This document shows, one piece after another, positions 14,824 to 57,752 of a stretch of DNA of 64,000 nt. Position 1 is the stretch's first letter, and every line of letters begins with the position of its first letter. The position numbers and the translations under genes are program-made. The DNA is taken from IMG/VR virus record IMGVR_UViG_3300009031_000221, positions 472,054-536,053 of that record. One strand, 5' to 3'. Origin of the DNA: a virus (lineage: Duplodnaviria > Caudoviricetes). The notes under the pieces are model-generated. The model was given only the letters and a program-made list of their open reading frames with translations, searched no databases and was not told the DNA's origin.

Positions 14824-15297
14824 TCACGGAATATCGAATCGGACATTCTCACCGTCCCACCACCCAACACGTCCTCGAACTGTGGGCATCCCTGATCGGG
14901 CTTCTGCACTCCGCACTAGGAACTTGGCATAAGCAGGGGGAACCCCTGCCGCAGTGGATATGGTGATATGTGGAATTCGCCCTCGGGGTGCTAAAATGCT
15001 AGGCGGGTCTACTACCACGGCCTGCCCTTTAGCATCCTCCGCATAGCCTACAATCTTCAACGCTATGAACTTCCCTAATGGAAGTTCCTCAAGGCGGGGA
15101 TCCCCACCGTCATGGTGCGTCCATATAGTCATATGATGGGCAAACAGTTCTGAATGAACCTGTCCAAACCGATCGACTAATCGACGTTGATCCATGGGAG
15201 ACAGAAACACTGCCGTATAAAGGGGAGTGCCTATGAATTCGGCAACAACATGCCGTATCCACCGGGATGCCACACGATGTTTAGGGCTTTGTTGCAT
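14824..15297 (-). CDS. 2H phosphoesterase
   Basis: two HxT motifs (HMT, HIT); N-terminal HRVASRW. Confidence 0.75.
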   Translation of the reverse strand: MQQSPKHRVASRWIRHVVAEFIGTPLYTAVFLSPMDQRRLVDRFGQVHSELFAHHMTIWTHHDGGDPRLEELPLGKFIALKIVGYAEDAKGQAVVVDPPSILAPRGRIPHITISTAAGVPPAYAKFLVRSAEARSGMPTVRGRVGWWDGENVRFDIP

Positions 15298-32381: not shown

Positions 32382-33035
32382 ATGTCCATACGAACAGAAT
32401 CTGCTGAACGTGTTGCTTCCACTTGGCGTGTAGCATCCGAATTTTGGAATCGGCTAAGCCGTTCCGTTCCAATGTATACGGACGATGCTCTCCGTACTTT
32501 AGGACTATCCTCAGGTGCTAGCCCCGAAGAAATCAAATCCGCCTATCGCAAGATGATGATGCTTCATCATCCTGATCGCGGAGGAGACACAGCCAAGGCA
32601 CAGCAAATTAATGAGGCATACGCACAACTGAAAGAAGGCATCACCATCAATCGCCCCTATGGCTATTCCCGCCCTACTCCTACGCCCCCACCTCGTCCAG
32701 CCCCGCCTCGCCCTACCCCTACGCCACCCCCAAGGCCAACTCCATCAGCAAACCCTCACATAAGGGTAACGTGGAGGATGGCTGAGAATCTAACGGGAAT
32801 GCACGGGGAAAGCCGTCCGGACGCCAAAGACATCAAGCGGATTGATGATATGATCGTGCGAGCCAAGGGCAACCCCGCCAAACTAGCGGCACTGGCTCAA
32901 CAAATGGCCAGTTCTATTGACAGTATTGCAAAGGCTCTTCGCCGAGGTCGTGCAGCAGAAGAACATGCAGATAGCTCTGTGAATTATGCTTCACAGGTAT
33001 TCTACACTCGTGCTCGGACCCTTGCCGGAGTGTAG
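32382..33035 (+). CDS. J-domain (DnaJ-like) protein
   Basis: LRTLGL...EIKSAYRKMMMLHHPDRGGD...INEAYAQL; Pro-rich linker; N-terminal ERVASTW. Confidence 0.85.
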   Translation: MSIRTESAERVASTWRVASEFWNRLSRSVPMYTDDALRTLGLSSGASPEEIKSAYRKMMMLHHPDRGGDTAKAQQINEAYAQLKEGITINRPYGYSRPTPTPPPRPAPPRPTPTPPPRPTPSANPHIRVTWRMAENLTGMHGESRPDAKDIKRIDDMIVRAKGNPAKLAALAQQMASSIDSIAKALRRGRAAEEHADSSVNYASQVFYTRARTLAGV

Positions 33036-33036
33036 G

Positions 33037-33207
33037 CTACTTGGAACTGATTCGGTCGATACCCATGACAGCCATCGCAATGGCAAGGCCTGATAGACCC
33101 ACACAAGTCACCCAGTACTGAGGACTTTGGTGCCAAGCAAAGTCTGCCCCAACAAGGTAGAGGATGCTCATCGCAATCATGATCCATCCGTAGCTAAAGC
33201 GTCCCAT
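33037..33207 (-). CDS. small two-TM membrane protein
   Basis: hydrophobic ORF from MGRFSY. Confidence 0.45.
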   Translation of the reverse strand: MGRFSYGWIMIAMSILYLVGADFAWHQSPQYWVTCVGLSGLAIAMAVMGIDRISSK

Positions 33208-33385
33208 TCGCAAAGTCCTTTTCAAGCTCGGCGAGGTCTTCACACTTGGCATCGTAGCACCCTTGGCAAAGCCCCGCCCATACCGGAGATTCCTTCTGAC
33301 ATTCGTGGCATGTATCAGACGGTGGCAGAGGGCTAATACTCGTATCCCCGTCAAAGAAATCTTTCAAATCCATCCGTTGCCTCAC
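33194..33385 (-). CDS. small Zn-finger protein
   Basis: CHEC...CQGC; ATGA overlap. Confidence 0.5.
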   Translation of the reverse strand: MRQRMDLKDFFDGDTSISPLPPSDTCHECQKESPVWAGLCQGCYDAKCEDLAELEKDFANGTL

Positions 33386-34146
33386 ACTGCGATCTTGAAC
33401 AATGAACGAATGGCATCAGGATCTACCGGAATACCGGCCTTCTTGGAATGCGCTGCTGCTTCCGGGCCAATCTTGATTTCCGTCAACCGATCAGGCGTCA
33501 ACGAATACCGGACATACAACCCAACCGGCAACATCGCCTTCAGGATATCCTTGGCAACGGTCTTGGGCTTATGCTGTGCATGCCAATGTCCATTCACGGA
33601 AGGTTCCAGAACCTTCTCCCCCAGCTTGACGCCATCAATGTAGATCGTTCCCTTGACAAGGTTGTTCGTGCAGTCTCCCGCACCAACGTAGACCTGTGCC
33701 CCTAGGATGATCTGCCCGTCTACCTGAAGAGGTTCCCACGTCCGGGCATATCCCGTATCTATGGTCTTGATGCCCTGGTAAGCCGCCGCGTTCAGGACAT
33801 GTGTGAAATACTCATCTACTTCCTGAACCGCTTCCGCCACATCCTGAAGGGTCACGAGAGGATAACCCGCTTCCTGCGTAGCTTTCATCAAGCTTTTGAA
33901 CAGCGAACCCTGACTCCAAATCTCATGGAGCTTCCTATGACTCCGTTCAATCAACGCCGAATACTGAAATCCCGTCCAGAAAAGGACGTGTACCTTTTCA
34001 TCGCCATAAATAGCGTATTTCCCAAAGGTTCCGTGCCGCTCCCCTTTCTTGTGAAGGATCATCGACACCAGGGTTCCTTGGCCTAGATTGCCAATCCCTG
34101 TCAAGGAAGATGCGGTACGGGTATCATTTGCGTTGGTCGCGAGCAT
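33382..34146 (-). CDS. hypothetical protein, paralog of 28071..28877
   Basis: YGDEKVHVLFWTGFQY, PKTVAKDILKAMLPVGLYVRY. Confidence 0.75.
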   Translation of the reverse strand: MLATNANDTRTASSLTGIGNLGQGTLVSMILHKKGERHGTFGKYAIYGDEKVHVLFWTGFQYSALIERSHRKLHEIWSQGSLFKSLMKATQEAGYPLVTLQDVAEAVQEVDEYFTHVLNAAAYQGIKTIDTGYARTWEPLQVDGQIILGAQVYVGAGDCTNNLVKGTIYIDGVKLGEKVLEPSVNGHWHAQHKPKTVAKDILKAMLPVGLYVRYSLTPDRLTEIKIGPEAAAHSKKAGIPVDPDAIRSLFKIAV

Positions 34147-34194
34147 GGTATGCCTCCAGGGAGATATACCCCAGGGGAACCAAAAGCGATCTAG

Positions 34195-34920
34195 CTAGTC
34201 CCTCTCGGAAGCCGTTAGGGTAGCCTTGCCTTCCCCAATCTCCCAATCCTCAAAATCGTGTGGGGATCTAGGATGAGGAATGCCTATCTTCTCGTAACCC
34301 TCATCGGAGGTGACTCGAAGGGACTTAGGCAACCGTCCGTAGAACGAATTCCAGTCCGGGGATTTCAGGGCAATTACCGCCAGATCTTCTGCAAGTTGCC
34401 GTTTCTCGGCATCCCCATGCGGGGCCTTCCAGGATCCTTCCAATGTGACAGTCAACGTGGCCCATTCATCCACAGGGTAGGCTTCCATATTTGTGATCCT
34501 GACGGACTTAGGATCGATAACTTGATTCGATTCCATGTATCGATAGGCAACACGAGAAGCCAATTTACCAATAGGAGATTCACCTAATTCTTCTGCGGAT
34601 ATGCGATCCGCCTCGGGTTTCACTTTATTTGCCAACTTCACAGCTTCTTGAAGTGTGTCCACTGTCTGGGATGACCACCGATGTGCAGGGTTCCCTGTGT
34701 ACCACACCACTCGAAATAGCTCCTTCTTGGATCCTGTGTGCCGTTGATGAACGAAATTGACAGCGTAGAATGTAACAACCCGTTGTTCATAGGATTGGTC
34801 ATGGGGGTCTAACCGCCACCGCTCAGCCTTAAGCCGTCGCATTACTTCTGCAACAGTAATGGTCAAAACCCGATCATTTGCGATCAAGTATCGAGCAATA
34901 ATCCGTTGTGCCAATCCCAT
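34195..34920 (-). CDS. hypothetical protein with two RVAxR-type motifs
   Basis: LAQRIIARYL, LASRVAYRYM. Confidence 0.65.
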   Translation of the reverse strand: MGLAQRIIARYLIANDRVLTITVAEVMRRLKAERWRLDPHDQSYEQRVVTFYAVNFVHQRHTGSKKELFRVVWYTGNPAHRWSSQTVDTLQEAVKLANKVKPEADRISAEELGESPIGKLASRVAYRYMESNQVIDPKSVRITNMEAYPVDEWATLTVTLEGSWKAPHGDAEKRQLAEDLAVIALKSPDWNSFYGRLPKSLRVTSDEGYEKIGIPHPRSPHDFEDWEIGEGKATLTASERD

Positions 34921-34930
34921 GTTCTAACCC

Positions 34931-35425
34931 CTACTTCATGTACCGGGAAGCAACACGGGATGCAATCTTGCCATCCTTCATCCGTTGCCCCAACAAGTAC
35001 AACGGCGTTTCGTGGCTATCCGCCAACCCGGCAAGGAAGTTATCCATACCAAGAGTGAGTTCCTCAGATTCATCTAGAGCATCAACAGTGTTGGTGATGG
35101 CATCCTGAAGCCCTTCCTCCACCATGTAAGCACGGGCAACAAGGTCAGGTTCCTCAGCCCACTTGGCTGCAAATGCTGCCTGCATACGAGTTTGTTGCAC
35201 GAGGTCTACAGATTCTGTTCCATACATGGCAACCATCTTCTCTGCCAACCCATCGATCTCGCCGGGGAAGCTTCCATAGAGGCGCCCAAACAATTCATGG
35301 TCGGCATAGAAGTTGGAACCCTTGGACTGCCAATGTGCCGTCCAGTGATTCTGATAAGCAGCATGAAGGTATGCCAGCAATGTTTGGCAGGACTCGGTTT
35401 GTGCGGCTCGCTTATTCATGGTCAT
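34931..35425 (-). CDS. Dps/ferritin-like protein
   Basis: HWQSKGSNFYADHELFGRLY...EIDGLAE ferroxidase-type motif; C-terminal IASRVASRY. Confidence 0.8.
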   Translation of the reverse strand: MTMNKRAAQTESCQTLLAYLHAAYQNHWTAHWQSKGSNFYADHELFGRLYGSFPGEIDGLAEKMVAMYGTESVDLVQQTRMQAAFAAKWAEEPDLVARAYMVEEGLQDAITNTVDALDESEELTLGMDNFLAGLADSHETPLYLLGQRMKDGKIASRVASRYMK

Positions 35426-35429
35426 TTCC

Positions 35430-35894
35430 TCAATAGATGGTCACGTTGACGCGAAACGGATGCTTCGCATAAAACTCCGCAATCGCGAAGGATGAAACCC
35501 TCGGATACTTGCGTCCTGACCATACGTCCTCATGAACATGATCAGGTTGTACAGGGCCAAAGTCCTGCAAAGGTGTGGTCACAGAATCTACGACTATCTT
35601 ACCGCCCGATGCTTTCGCCATGCGGCCTACGGTTGCCTTGATTACGGATGCAATTCGTCCCGGTGTGATCTTGTCCGTGCTGTTCATGTCCTCCCGCTTG
35701 GGGACAGCCGCAAATACATGTATTTGACCCGTTACGTTAGGACCGTTCTCATTGTAACTGTCCACTCGTGCCCGATTGACACCCGGCAAGTCATGCAACT
35801 CATCCGCAATACCGTCCAACACAGCAATACGGGCAATATCCCGTCCTATGAATTGACGTGCTACTCGATCAGCCATGAATTTACTAGGCATCAT
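35430..35894 (-). CDS. hypothetical protein with RVAxR motif
   Basis: MADRVARQF. Confidence 0.6.
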   Translation of the reverse strand: MMPSKFMADRVARQFIGRDIARIAVLDGIADELHDLPGVNRARVDSYNENGPNVTGQIHVFAAVPKREDMNSTDKITPGRIASVIKATVGRMAKASGGKIVVDSVTTPLQDFGPVQPDHVHEDVWSGRKYPRVSSFAIAEFYAKHPFRVNVTIY

Positions 35895-35903
35895 ATGTAA
35901 GTC

Positions 35904-36266
35904 CTACATGAAGGCGTCAATTTCATTGAGCAGTTCTCGCACATGACCTAGCGAACCGACGAATCCCCAGTTCTTGGGGTCTCGCTTGAATAGAATTACA
36001 TCTTGCTTCAATTTTCGGCGGATACTGACCAAAAGGGCATCAATTTCAGCCATACGCTTCCGGTAAGCTTCTTCAGCAGTATCTTCGGCCACCCGACGCA
36101 TCCATTGACGGGCTACACGTTCACTTGCGGTCTTGAATTCATAATCGGGCTTCATCTTCTTGTAGATGCCCATGATGTAGGCATAATCTTCGTCCTTGCC
36201 TTGTTCTTTGGCAATAGACTTGGCCTTCTGCCACTTCTTTTCGTCTTCAGGTGTCTTAGTAGGCAT
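35904..36266 (-). CDS. hypothetical protein with RVAxR motif
   Basis: TASERVARQW; start placed at MPTK. Confidence 0.6.
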   Translation of the reverse strand: MPTKTPEDEKKWQKAKSIAKEQGKDEDYAYIMGIYKKMKPDYEFKTASERVARQWMRRVAEDTAEEAYRKRMAEIDALLVSIRRKLKQDVILFKRDPKNWGFVGSLGHVRELLNEIDAFM

Positions 36267-36315
36267 TACACAAACCCTTGGTACAAATCCTACCAAGGGC
36301 TATCGTATAAGGACG

Positions 36316-36630
36316 CTACCGATTCCCAGGAAACTTGCCGTGCATGATGTCACGAATCATCTTGTTCGGATTCCTAGAGTCATTGTTGTGAATCAGAGAT
36401 TCCATACGGCTTGCCATGGCAATCCACAACCGGTATTCCGCCAAGGTGGGGAGCGTACATTCATCCGCCATCTTGCGAAGGGCTTGGGGATCCGGCAGTG
36501 CTCTGCGATCCCGGCCACCGGGCAGGAGGTTACGAAACTCCAGGCAATCCCCGCCGTACCAACCATGGGTGGAAATATGCTGAAAGCGCACAATGCGAAC
36601 AGCCATCCGCTGAAGGTCGAGGGGAGTCAT
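36316..36630 (-). CDS. hypothetical protein
   Basis: operon continuity; MAVRIVRF variant motif. Confidence 0.5.
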   Translation of the reverse strand: MTPLDLQRMAVRIVRFQHISTHGWYGGDCLEFRNLLPGGRDRRALPDPQALRKMADECTLPTLAEYRLWIAMASRMESLIHNNDSRNPNKMIRDIMHGKFPGNR

Positions 36631-39126: not shown

Positions 39127-39798
39127 CTAATCCATTGCACAATAGGTGTGATACTTGATGCCTTCTTTCTGCATGAGTTCCAAAATCTGATAGAACCGCA
39201 GATTCTGTACCTTCGCCATGTTGTCCTTGATCCAACGGTAGAACGCAGGGACAGATGCCTTCCCACCCTTTGCCGCGGGGATACATACTGGGAGGTTGTT
39301 CTTATCCATGCGATCCCGAATGACAAATGAATCATAGGTCGCTTCAATGAATACATCCCCGGTACGAATCTCAATAGGTTCATATCCAGCGGGCATAACT
39401 GCGATACCCTTTTCCTGATGAACCTCAAGATCCAATCGTTCCCCCAAGGCCTTGGAACGACTTACAAGCTGTTGTGCCATCGCCAAAGCCGCATCATAAC
39501 GCATGTTCTTCAAACGGAAACCGAACCTGATGATGTCATCGCCCAGAGCTTCATCCCGAACATCATCAATGTGGTATAGGGCGAATACATCAACGGTCTT
39601 GCCACGCTTACCGGCATTGGTCAGATCCCATACACGATAGGCTGTACGGAAAGCATGGAACCGAATGTTTGGACCTTCAAAAGTATTCCCCGTCAATGCA
39701 GAATCTGCATGCTTGCGAAGCAATGGCACGAGATGCTTTCGCAATTCAGGGTTGCTATGTGCAAGTTTGGCAACACGATGATAGAGTTGATCAGGCAT
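39127..39798 (-). CDS. hypothetical protein (probable virion-associated)
   Basis: N-terminal LYHRVAKLAHSNPELRKHLVPLLRKHA leader. Confidence 0.65.
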   Translation of the reverse strand: MPDQLYHRVAKLAHSNPELRKHLVPLLRKHADSALTGNTFEGPNIRFHAFRTAYRVWDLTNAGKRGKTVDVFALYHIDDVRDEALGDDIIRFGFRLKNMRYDAALAMAQQLVSRSKALGERLDLEVHQEKGIAVMPAGYEPIEIRTGDVFIEATYDSFVIRDRMDKNNLPVCIPAAKGGKASVPAFYRWIKDNMAKVQNLRFYQILELMQKEGIKYHTYCAMD

Positions 39799-57263: not shown

Positions 57264-57752
57264 CTAACGGTGACGGCAACGCCCACGTTGGACGTATATG
57301 GATGCTACCCGTACAGCAGCGTCTCGAGGATCGAAAATCAACGGCACGAGGCTTTTACGGATATTCCGAACCTCTATGGATACCTCACGTGGGGGTTTGC
57401 CATCCGCAAGAACTTCCATCCATTGCCGGGACTTCTCGGCAATGGATTCGGCTAGAGCTACGGAATCCCCTTCCTTGTCCATAGCACTCGCCTCTTCAGC
57501 AAGTCCTTCAATGGTCAATAGATGTTTACGGATGCAATCATCACAAAGCTTGTATGGATGGGCTAGATGATCTTCTAGTAGAATCATCTGTTTTGCGATT
57601 TCCCGCAAATTGAATTTGGGATCCGTGATATCTCGACGTGCTGCTTCATGTGCATGAGCTACACGAATAGCTGTAGCCGCTAGCCGTCTATTCAGGATTC
57701 TGGGTTCCATCATGCCCCTCACTACCGTACATATGAGAAGCACCATAGCCAC
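57264..57752 (-). CDS. hypothetical protein
   Basis: AIRVAHAH and AVRVASIY motifs; CDDCIRKH. Confidence 0.6.
   Translation of the reverse strand: MAMVLLICTVVRGMMEPRILNRRLAATAIRVAHAHEAARRDITDPKFNLREIAKQMILLEDHLAHPYKLCDDCIRKHLLTIEGLAEEASAMDKEGDSVALAESIAEKSRQWMEVLADGKPPREVSIEVRNIRKSLVPLIFDPRDAAVRVASIYVQRGRCRHR

What the first reader, a model, noticed from the sequence alone, without database searches (positions are those of the whole stretch)
32382..36630. Shared R-V-A-x-R-[YWF] motif on about ten unrelated proteins: candidate virion-packaging or processing signal
Seen: HRVASRW (2H, 14824), AKVAKRA (WGR, 15759), ERVASTW (J-domain, 32382), QRIIARY and SRVAYRY (34195), SRVASRY (Dps, 34931), DRVARQF (35430), ERVARQW (35904), HRVAKLA (39127), IRVAHAH and VRVASIY (57264). 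It is usually terminal or between domains, often near K-x-A (KRAA, FKTA, RKHA). None of these genes lies directly behind the 23-copy promoter. Inference: a sorting tag that loads diverse cargo enzymes into the capsid for injection, or a prohead-protease recognition element, analogous to processed internal head proteins of jumbo phages.
Basis: partly seen in the sequence, partly recalled or inferred. Interest (0 to 1): 0.72.

Follow-up and report, generated by a model that had tools for sequence, protein, structure and literature searches.

The report
Portable RVAxRY address tag, huge phage

Summary
The motif is real and far above chance. R-[VI]-A-x-R-[YWF] occurs 13 times in this genome against 0.35 in shuffles, and scrambled versions sit at chance. 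Codons vary synonymously, so selection acts on the peptide. Two sequenced relatives (45% and 62% GC) and 160 related contig pieces show the same excess. The cultured relatives Tunturi_5 and phage G have none.

The tag is portable. It sits outside the fold, favours termini (32 of 58, 10.4 expected), and moves between N- and C-terminus among orthologues. In head modules it marks accessory proteins, never the capsid, scaffold, protease or portal proteins.

A second motif, [KR]-x-A-S, is enriched in scaffolds, at protease domain borders and just upstream of tags. The protease has the T4 gp21/herpesvirus fold, so this may be the clipping site.

Best reading (about 0.45): an excisable head-loading label.

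I found no paper describing it. Earlier reports of this scan noted the same tag on other DNA and in other windows of this genome.

The parts
15256..15276 (-). N-terminal tag.
   Evidence: Translation; 15.7 bits on the tag matrix; no Pfam or PHROG match for the protein itself.
32409..32447 (+). Tandem tags RVASTW-RVASEFW, residues 10-22 of the J-domain protein (gene 32382-33035). N-terminal, moderate match.
   Evidence: Translation; 12.1 and 7.9 bits; DnaJ domain at residues 39-84, E = 1.6e-11.
34534..34554 (-). Tag RVAYRYM at residues 123-129, in the middle of the 241-aa protein of gene 34195-34920, preceded by K-L-A-S. The best-scoring tag of the genome.
   Evidence: Translation; 32.3 bits; no family match for the protein.
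34885..34905 (-). Weak tag-like RIIARYL at residues 6-12 of the same 241-aa protein (gene 34195-34920). Doubtful member.
   Evidence: Translation; only 10.4 bits.
34937..34957 (-). Tag RVASRYM, residues 157-163 of 164 of the Dps/ferritin-like protein (gene 34931-35425), preceded by K-I-A-S. C-terminal tag outside the four-helix bundle.
   Evidence: Translation; 32.0 bits. The AlphaFold2 model has its last long helix at 125-152 and high pLDDT (>=90 in most 10-residue blocks) up to about residue 150, while the tail 153-164 is below 50. Homologues carry the tag at the C-terminus, at the N-terminus, or not at all.
35847..35867 (-). Tag RVARQFI, residues 10-16 of an orphan 154-aa protein (gene 35430-35894). 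N-terminal tag.
   Evidence: Translation; 17.0 bits; no homologue beyond its own cluster.
36099..36119 (-). Tag RVARQWM, residues 60-66 of the 130-aa ORF (gene 35904-36296), preceded by K-T-A-S-E. Internal tag.
   Evidence: Translation; 21.3 bits.
57291..57311 (-). Tag RVASIYV, residues 148-154 of 162 (gene 57264-57752). C-terminal tag.
   Evidence: Translation; 15.0 bits; the protein has homologues in G001 and G004.

Best explanation
R-[VI]-A-x-R-[YWF]-[LM], often with a preceding K-[ST]-A-S, is a portable short linear address tag. It is a short, probably helical, basic peptide that hangs on a flexible linker outside the folded part of otherwise unrelated soluble proteins. It occurs at the N-terminus, at the C-terminus, or at the joint between domains of polyproteins.

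All copies are probably read by one conserved phage-encoded partner. I think that partner is most likely a component of the assembling prohead, so that tagged proteins are enclosed as internal head proteins and probably delivered to the host with the DNA. In this window the tagged proteins are a 2H-like protein, a J-domain protein, a Dps-like protein and several orphans. Elsewhere in the genome they include a polyprotein joining 2H, CCA-adding and topoisomerase IB domains.

Nearby [KR]-x-A-S sites are probably cut between A and S by the phage's gp21/assemblin-fold maturation protease, which would free cargo from its label.

What is shown:
- enrichment and protein-level selection;
- portability between termini of orthologues;
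- position outside the fold;
- clade-wide conservation;
- restriction to accessory proteins within head modules;
- local association with [KR]xAS;
- the fold of the protease.

What is inferred: that there is a single reader, that it belongs to the head, and that packaging, cleavage and ejection occur.

My odds: about 0.85 that this is a selected portable docking tag, and about 0.45 that its purpose is head loading.
For: 1. Enrichment. Strict motif counts against shuffles: G000 13 vs 0.35-0.53, G001 19 vs 0.63, G004 7 vs 0.47. In 80 loci around Dps homologues: 39 vs 1.6. In 80 head-module loci: 57 vs 0-1.

2. Selection on the peptide. Codons vary synonymously. The motif is kept in genomes of 45%, 52% and 62% GC.

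3. Portability.
- Dps-like homologues carry it at the C-terminus (query, P0003, P0005; P0002 only a degenerate form, KTALRY), at the N-terminus (P0004), or not at all.
- The g125762 family has it at the C-terminus in G000 and G001 and at the N-terminus in G002.
- In 150 representatives of that family, each standing for a separate 50%-identity cluster, 67 carry it and none do after shuffling. Where listed (the first 70 were printed) it mostly follows the conserved domain directly. It is the C-terminus in 24 and a joint to further sequence in 32.
- In that family the linker before the tag varies while the tag is kept.

4. Position. It lies outside the fold and shows terminal bias.

5. Carriers are soluble.

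6. Head link.
- Among head-module genes of relatives, tags occur in the polyprotein next to the portal gene (20 of 29), g125762 (14 of 28), g142303 (6 of 27) and g123917 (3 of 25).
- They occur in none of the 45-49 capsid, decoration-like, scaffold and protease orthologues, nor in 11 portal orthologues.

7. Clipping code.
- [KR]xAS is enriched in the scaffolds of four genomes: 4-6 observed vs 0.35-0.76, p <= 0.0015, with reversed controls at chance.
- It is conserved at both borders of the protease linker (K-A-A-S and R-T-A-S-S-D) and at the N-terminus of the g125762 family.
- It is 20-fold enriched just upstream of tags.
- N-terminal tags have [KR]xA more often downstream (26%), C-terminal tags more often upstream (23%), and internal tags on both sides.

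8. Protease fold. Z = 8.2 to T4 gp21 (5JBL) and Z = 6.8-4.9 to five herpesvirus proteases. Herpesvirus proteases cut after Ala, with predicted sites YLQA-T and VQA-S, to free the scaffold from the capsid protein (PMC4498786).

9. Precedent. The T4 capsid targeting sequence loads unrelated proteins into the head core and is then removed by gp21 (PMC9026906).
Against: - There is no direct evidence of packaging, binding or cleavage.
- The phage is uncultured. The two cultured relatives with similar capsid proteins, Tunturi_5 and phage G, lack the tag, so no virion proteome can be consulted.
- Only 4 of the 17 tagged genes of G000 that score at least 15 bits lie in the head module. Others sit among helicase, chaperonin and accessory genes.
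- Some carriers would be expected to act in the cytoplasm, for example a UvrD-type helicase with an intein that has a weak tag.
- Only 12-33% of tags have a flanking [KR]xA(S), and the motif is not enriched elsewhere in tagged proteins.
- Part of the upstream S-A-S pattern could be helix capping rather than a cleavage site.
- The promoter argument is not significant.
- A similar address-tag reading elsewhere in this scan was later given low odds for its bold version.
Confidence: 0.45

Rival explanations
1. The tag docks its carriers onto a conserved partner that is not part of the head. Candidates are a phage replication or repair factory, the phage chaperonin, a host chaperone or protease adaptor (which would make it a timing or degradation tag), or a compartment of the infected cell.
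For: - Most tagged genes of G000 lie outside the head module. Two of them sit beside a phage GroEL gene and helicases.
- Several carriers act on nucleic acids or are chaperone-related: Dps-like, topoisomerase IB, helicase, J-domain.
- Terminal bias is also typical of degrons and of clamp- or hub-binding peptides.
Against: - The tag is nearly invariant in phages of 45-62% GC, which probably infect different hosts. This argues for a phage-encoded and very conserved reader. By far the most conserved proteins are the capsid protein (87-92% identity) and the portal (65-70%).
- The genome encodes no Hsp70 and no ClpP.
- The families that keep the tag across relatives are head-module genes.
- The tag is locally linked to the motif that is enriched in scaffold and head protease.
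- Forty-five percent of tags are internal, which fits degrons poorly.
Confidence: 0.27
2. The motif is itself the recognition and cleavage site of the head maturation protease (R-V-A cut before x-R-Y). Its only role would be to split polyproteins and trim propeptides, with the protease active site as its reader.
For: - R-V-A-S is formally an instance of [KR]-x-A-S, the motif enriched in scaffolds and at protease domain borders.
- Conserved positions form a contiguous seven-residue footprint, as protease subsites would.
- Tags mark the domain joints of the polyprotein.
- The protease has the assemblin/gp21 fold.
Against: - The position that would be P1' is freely variable (S, A, T, N, Q, D, E, Y, H, R, G, L, M, V), whereas the flanking and scaffold sites keep Ser.
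- Many tags lie 2-7 residues from the C-terminus or 5-10 from the N-terminus, where a cut would remove almost nothing.
- The hydrophobic residues fall at positions 1, 2, 5 and 6, the spacing of one face of a helix (my reading), and a short helix is modelled there at low confidence.
- Scaffolds, which must be degraded, use [KR]xAS and never the full tag.
Confidence: 0.12
3. The motif has no common function. It would be a chance or compositional pattern, or the remnant of one duplicated protein segment.
For: A few individual matches are probably chance:
- RIATRYF lies inside the RNB catalytic domain.
- RVARIY lies in a conserved stretch of the capsid protein, where tagless relatives have different residues at the aligned positions (TVAYIF, VVTKIV).
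- The WGR-protein peptides scored at most 6.6 bits and IRVAHAH below the 6-bit threshold.
Against: - There is a 20- to 40-fold excess over shuffles in several genomes and in 160 related loci, with scrambled controls at chance.
- The flanks of different carriers are unrelated.
- The tag has been kept for a long time at the same place in one family while the linkers vary.
- It is absent from Tunturi_5, although its matrix and shuffle expectations are similar.
Confidence: 0.02

Closest known systems
Capsid targeting sequence (CTS) of phage T4 internal proteins IPI-III and Alt (Mullaney and Black 1996; reviewed in PMC9026906)
   Same: - It is a short peptide shared by otherwise unrelated proteins.
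- It directs them into the assembling head core and is then removed by the head protease, whose fold (gp21) this phage's protease shares.
- The cargo sets differ between related phages, as they do here.
   Different: - The T4 CTS is a strictly N-terminal propeptide of about 10 residues that ends in the L/I-x-E cleavage site. Here the tag has an unrelated sequence and works, if it works, at the N-terminus, the C-terminus or internally.
- The candidate cleavage motif is [KR]-x-A-S, lies beside the tag rather than inside it, and accompanies only a minority of tags.
- The T4 function is shown by experiment; here nothing is.
Encapsulin cargo-loading peptides (C-terminal targeting peptides of ferritin-like, DyP and other cargo that bind the inner face of an HK97-fold shell; my knowledge, plus the titles and abstracts listed)
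   Same: - A short peptide sits on a flexible linker outside the cargo fold, mostly terminal and transferable between cargo types.
- A ferritin-like (Dps-like) protein is among the carriers.
- The shell protein here also has the HK97 fold and is the most conserved protein of the clade.
   Different: - The consensus is different: encapsulin peptides are Gly/Ser/Leu-rich, not R-V-A-x-R-Y.
- This is a tailed, DNA-packaging virus with scaffold, protease and portal.
- Internal tags and flanking protease motifs have no counterpart in encapsulins.
- Binding to the shell is untested.
Herpesvirus scaffold C-terminal tail with its maturational (M) site, and the C-terminal capsid-targeting tail of the HK97 protease gp4 (PMC4498786 for herpesviruses; HK97 from my knowledge of Duda et al. 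2013)
   Same: - A terminal docking peptide holds a protein inside the procapsid.
- An assemblin-fold protease cuts after Ala just upstream and releases it.
- Here [KR]-x-A-S lies shortly before the conserved scaffold C-terminal peptide and just upstream of many tags.
   Different: - Those peptides serve the scaffold or the protease itself, not a varied set of cargo enzymes.
- This phage's scaffold and protease each have their own, different C-terminal peptides (WESAPDVSKVF and LIRLGKLLS).

Membership tests
T4-type capsid targeting sequence | One short peptide shared by otherwise unrelated proteins of one phage | tested here: met
   About 17-19 carriers in G000 have unrelated bodies and flanks, a 20- to 40-fold excess over shuffles.
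T4-type capsid targeting sequence | Strictly N-terminal propeptide of about ten residues | tested here: not met
   Of 58 tags, 17 are N-terminal, 15 C-terminal and 26 internal.
T4-type capsid targeting sequence | The peptide ends in the cleavage site of the head protease and is removed | tested here: inconclusive
   The candidate site [KR]xA(S) flanks 12-33% of tags, oriented towards the cargo. Cleavage itself was not observed.
T4-type capsid targeting sequence | Sufficient to load a foreign protein into heads; carriers are found in virions | not testable with these tools
   The phage is uncultured and the cultured relatives lack the tag.
Encapsulin cargo-loading peptide | Short terminal peptide outside the cargo fold on a flexible linker | tested here: met
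   In the Dps-like model the fold ends with a helix at 125-152 and the tail 153-164 has pLDDT below 50. In the g125762 family the linker varies and the tag is kept.
Encapsulin cargo-loading peptide | Family consensus sequence of known loading peptides | tested here: not met
   The logo R-V-A-x-R-[YWF]-[LM] does not resemble the Gly/Ser/Leu-type consensus, which I recall from memory.
Encapsulin cargo-loading peptide | Binds the inner face of the HK97-fold shell protein | not testable with these tools
   Needs binding or structural experiments; see Tried and rejected.
Cleavage site of a gp21/assemblin-fold head protease | The phage encodes a protease of that fold in the head module | tested here: met
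   phrog_18299 head maturation protease. The model of residues 57-270 matches T4 gp21 (5JBL: Z = 8.2, rmsd 3.4, 139 aligned) and five herpesvirus proteases (Z = 6.8-4.9). Z near 8 is only moderate.
Cleavage site of a gp21/assemblin-fold head protease | Fixed residues on both sides of the scissile bond, recurring in scaffold and protease | tested here: not met
   This applies to the tag core itself. The would-be P1' residue is freely variable, and no scaffold or protease orthologue carries the full tag. The separate motif [KR]xAS does meet this feature.

The most novel reading that the evidence does not exclude
A clade of huge phages, covering more than 2,000 capsid-protein clusters, uses a position-independent and excisable address label. 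The label would be read by the almost invariant HK97-fold capsid shell or by the portal, much as encapsulins load cargo. It would be bracketed by Ala-Ser sites for an assemblin-fold protease. In this way each phage could pack and inject its own changeable kit of enzymes, including RNA-end repair, CCA-adding enzyme, topoisomerase IB, a J-domain co-chaperone and Dps-like proteins. A new cargo protein could be recruited simply by acquiring seven residues at either end.
Probability: 0.3. Interest if true: 0.8.

Novelty: new variant of a known kind. Interest (0 to 1): 0.6.

Why it matters
If the label does load proteins into the head, three things follow.
- It gives a simple sequence rule for listing the injected protein arsenal of a very large, uncultured clade of huge phages directly from genomes.
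- It would show that tailed phages can use an encapsulin-like, position-independent loading code, not only N-terminal propeptides.
- It would offer a seven-residue handle for packing foreign proteins into phage capsids.

The companion motif [KR]-x-A-S would give the first specificity proposal for this branch of gp21/assemblin-fold proteases.

Tried and rejected
1. Complex prediction of the capsid protein (alignment A2) with a 43-residue piece around the best tag (residues 98-140 of gene 34195-34920) returned 'no answer' with a score of 0.00.

2. I considered the EF-hand pair in the scaffold as the tag reader, by analogy with calmodulin binding a basic helix. I rejected it. G002 and 19 of 47 close relatives have scaffolds without EF-hand loops, yet carry tags at similar density: 1.7 against 2.24 per 10,000 residues.

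3. I tried phyletic profiling for a reader present in tag-bearing genomes and absent from Tunturi_5. It left 64 candidates and was not informative.

4. Promoter class as a timing clue led nowhere. The motif CGGTAG-N5-YTATA has only 4-8 copies. The absence of tagged genes behind the abundant CTTACTT-N13-GCGTAGAT promoter is not significant.

5. A single-protein scan of viral contigs with the Dps-like protein found nothing; the alignment-based scan worked.

6. The orphan 35430 has no homologues, so it gives no second portability test inside the window.

7. An Atlas look-up of g125762 gave only generic helical matches.

8. Foldseek alone gave no significant protease match (best E = 0.06); only the second-look aligner did.

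9. Literature searches for the tag strings and for targeting peptides in huge phages found no description. The phage G multi-omics paper gives no cleavage rule.

10. A megablast of the region against the phage collection found no match.

11. I rejected a DNA-level repeat and membrane anchoring.

Full report
**Setting.** The window is the last 64 kb of a single 536,053-bp virus contig with 52% GC. No gene caller was available. I therefore built a crude model of 630 ORFs, using codon-usage scoring and greedy non-overlap. Gene starts are accordingly approximate. The head module lies at 119-162 kb of the genome:
- major capsid protein, 137187-138062;
- scaffold, 139022-140833;
- head protease, 140776-142299;
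- a 1,798-residue polyprotein with 2H-type, CCA-adding-type and topoisomerase IB domains, 143971-149367;
- portal, 149412-151124;
- large terminase, 151771-153732.

**Is the motif real?** Yes.
- RVAx[RKQT][YWF] occurs 16 times against 0.8 in per-protein shuffles.
- R[VI]AxR[YWF] occurs 13 times against 0.35. Reversed and scrambled orders and conservative variants (K for R, L for V, G/S for A, aliphatic for aromatic) stay at 0-3, mostly within the shuffle expectation.
- The instances use different synonymous codons for every fixed residue. The conserved thing is therefore a peptide and not a DNA element.
- A logo from 47 non-redundant instances extends the motif to K-[ST]-A-S-R-V-A-x-R-[YWF]-[LM]-A/K-S/K, with position x free.

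I scored them with the matrix from that logo.
- Six are strong: 2H-like 15.7 bits, 34195 internal 32.3, Dps-like 32.0, 35430 17.0, 35904 21.3, and the 57264 C-terminal instance 15.0.
- The J-domain tandem is moderate at 12.1 and 7.9 bits.
- QRIIARY is weak at 10.4 bits.
- AKVAKRA and IRVAHAH fail.
- HRVAKLA belongs to another shared N-terminal peptide, LAHxNPELRxHLVPLL.
- Two further matches elsewhere in the genome look like chance. RIATRYF lies inside an RNB catalytic domain. RVARIY lies in a conserved stretch of the capsid protein, where tagless relatives have different residues at the aligned positions.

**Spread among relatives.**
- The capsid protein has 2,101 clusters of homologues. The best 120 are at least 88% identical.
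- I fetched three relatives whole. Strict-motif counts against shuffles are 19 vs 0.63 in G001 (436 kb, 62% GC) and 7 vs 0.47 in G004 (376 kb, 45% GC).
- G002 has a 76% identical capsid protein. It has only relaxed tags, 7 vs 0.8 at 12 bits.
- Eighty loci around Dps homologues hold 39 strict tags against 1.6 expected. Eighty head-module loci hold 57 matrix hits against 0-1.
- The cultured relatives have none. These are Tunturiibacter phage Tunturi_5 (capsid protein 49.5% identical) and Bacillus phage G (39%). No virion proteome can therefore be consulted.

**Behaviour of the tag.**
- It prefers protein ends. Of 58 tags, 32 are terminal against 10.4 expected (p = 2e-10), and the rest are internal.
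- In the Dps-like protein the AlphaFold2 model is confident up to a last helix at 125-152. The tail 153-164, which holds the tag, is an unstructured appendage with pLDDT below 50.
- It moves. Dps-like homologues have it at the C-terminus (one of them in degenerate form), at the N-terminus (P0004), or lack it. In G004 the Dps domain is instead fused to a larger protein.
- The small head-module protein g125762 has it at the C-terminus in G000 and G001 and at the N-terminus in G002.
- Among 150 representatives of that family, each standing for a separate 50%-identity cluster, 67 carry a tag and none do after shuffling. Where listed, it mostly follows the conserved domain directly. It is the C-terminus in 24 members and a joint to extra C-terminal sequence in 32.
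- In the alignment the linker before the tag varies in length and sequence while the tag is kept.
- Carriers are soluble. One of 49 has a membrane-like segment, against 9% of all proteins.

**Link to the head.** Across head modules of relatives the tag is found in the polyprotein next to the portal gene (20 of 29 orthologues), g125762 (14 of 28), g142303 (6 of 27) and g123917 (3 of 25). It is found in none of the 45-49 orthologues each of the capsid protein, its neighbour g138074, the scaffold and the protease, nor in 11 portal orthologues. The tag therefore marks accessory proteins encoded among the head genes, not the shell or the assembly machinery itself. Outside the head module the carriers differ between genomes, as would be expected for a changeable cargo set. 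The window's run of five adjacent tagged genes (32382-36296) is such an island.

**A companion motif.**
- [KR]-x-A-S is enriched in the scaffolds of four genomes: 4-6 sites against 0.35-0.76 expected, p <= 0.0015, with reversed patterns at chance.
- Its positions there are conserved, including one shortly before the conserved C-terminal scaffold peptide.
- It is conserved at both ends of the disordered linker of the protease (K-A-A-S and R-T-A-S-S-D) and at the N-terminus of the g125762 family.
- With tags chosen by their core alone, [KR]xAS lies within 8 residues upstream of 12% of 116 non-redundant tags against 0.6% of controls. [KR]xA lies upstream of 28% and downstream of 21%, against 6%.
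- N-terminal tags have it more often downstream, C-terminal tags more often upstream, and internal tags on both sides.
- It is not enriched elsewhere in tagged proteins.
- The protease model (residues 57-270) matches T4 gp21 (Z = 8.2) and five herpesvirus proteases (Z = 6.8-4.9). Herpesvirus proteases cut after Ala to free the scaffold from the capsid protein (PMC4498786).
- I therefore infer, without proof, that [KR]-x-A|S is the maturation cleavage site and that many tags can be clipped off.

**Is the tag itself the cleavage site?** I think not. Position x, the would-be P1' residue, takes almost any residue. Many tags end 2-7 residues before the stop codon. The hydrophobic residues at positions 1, 2, 5 and 6 fit one face of a helix.

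**Who reads the tag?** Unknown.
- The tag is nearly invariant in genomes of very different GC content. That argues for a phage-encoded and very conserved reader. The capsid protein (87-92% identity) and the portal (65-70%) are by far the most conserved proteins.
- The genome has no Hsp70 or ClpP of its own.
- The EF-hand pair in the scaffold was an attractive candidate, but it is dispensable.
- A complex prediction of capsid protein with tag gave no answer (see Tried and rejected).

**Comparison and novelty.**
- In function the closest system is the T4 capsid targeting sequence (PMC9026906). The tag fails that family's defining N-terminal propeptide architecture and has an unrelated sequence.
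- In form (terminal peptide on a linker, ferritin-like cargo, HK97-fold shell) it resembles encapsulin loading peptides, again with a different sequence.
- I found no paper containing the tag strings or describing such a tag in huge phages.
- Earlier reports of this scan noted the same tag in other genomes and in other windows of this genome. One similar address-tag claim was later given low odds for its bold reading. That is why I keep the head-loading reading at about 0.45 while holding the portable-tag conclusion at about 0.85.

Noticed in passing
window 39127-39798 (-); also genome 114744-115304 and 158035-158490: A second portable peptide, [KR]-L-A-[HQ]-x-x-P-E-L-R-x-[HYV]-[LI]-[VIL]-P-[LIV], starts three unrelated proteins of this genome. 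It also occurs three times in G001 (once internally) and once in G002.
   Followed up: partly
genome 139022-140833 (L002:16022-17833, -): The head scaffold carries a pair of EF-hand calcium-binding loops (Pfam EF-hand_6, EF-hand_1). G001, G004 and 28 of 47 close relatives share them; G002, Tunturi_5 and 19 close relatives do not. A calcium-binding scaffold seems unusual.
   Followed up: partly
genome 140776-142299 (L002:17776-19299, -): The head protease ends in a conserved peptide of its own, [TL]-[LI]-[IV]-R-L-[GA]-K-L-[LI]-S, after a confidently modelled helical C-terminal domain (residues 395-490). This may be its own capsid-docking tail. The scaffold ends in W-E-S-A-P-D-V-S-K-V-F.
   Followed up: no
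whole genome; 20 copies in the window, e.g. 37886 (-), 39119 (-), 30740 (-): An abundant promoter-like element, CTTAC[TC]T-N10-16-GCGTAGAT, has about 102 copies, 74 of them on the minus strand. It is almost absent from 40-200 kb, where the head and probably tail genes lie.
   Followed up: partly
genome 204528-206264 (L006:9528-11264, -): A phage-encoded GroEL-type chaperonin (phrog_5725, E = 1e-113) lies directly beside two tagged genes, 206237-207034 and 207243-207857.
   Followed up: no
genome 15402-20048 (L004:402-5048, +): A UvrD-type helicase is interrupted by an intein-like insert (Pfam Intein_splicing at residues 752-1086, below the family cut-off). It ends with a weak tag, KVASRWA, scoring 15.7 bits.
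   Followed up: no
genome 137187-138062 (L002:14187-15062, -): The capsid protein is extraordinarily conserved: 87-92% identity between genomes of 45-62% GC whose other shared proteins are mostly 40-65% identical. It has 2,101 homologue clusters in the protein collection.
   Followed up: partly
G004 69426-71129 (-): In this relative the Dps-like domain is the C-terminal part (residues 403-559) of a 567-residue protein and has no tag. Fusion to a larger protein may replace tagging.
   Followed up: no
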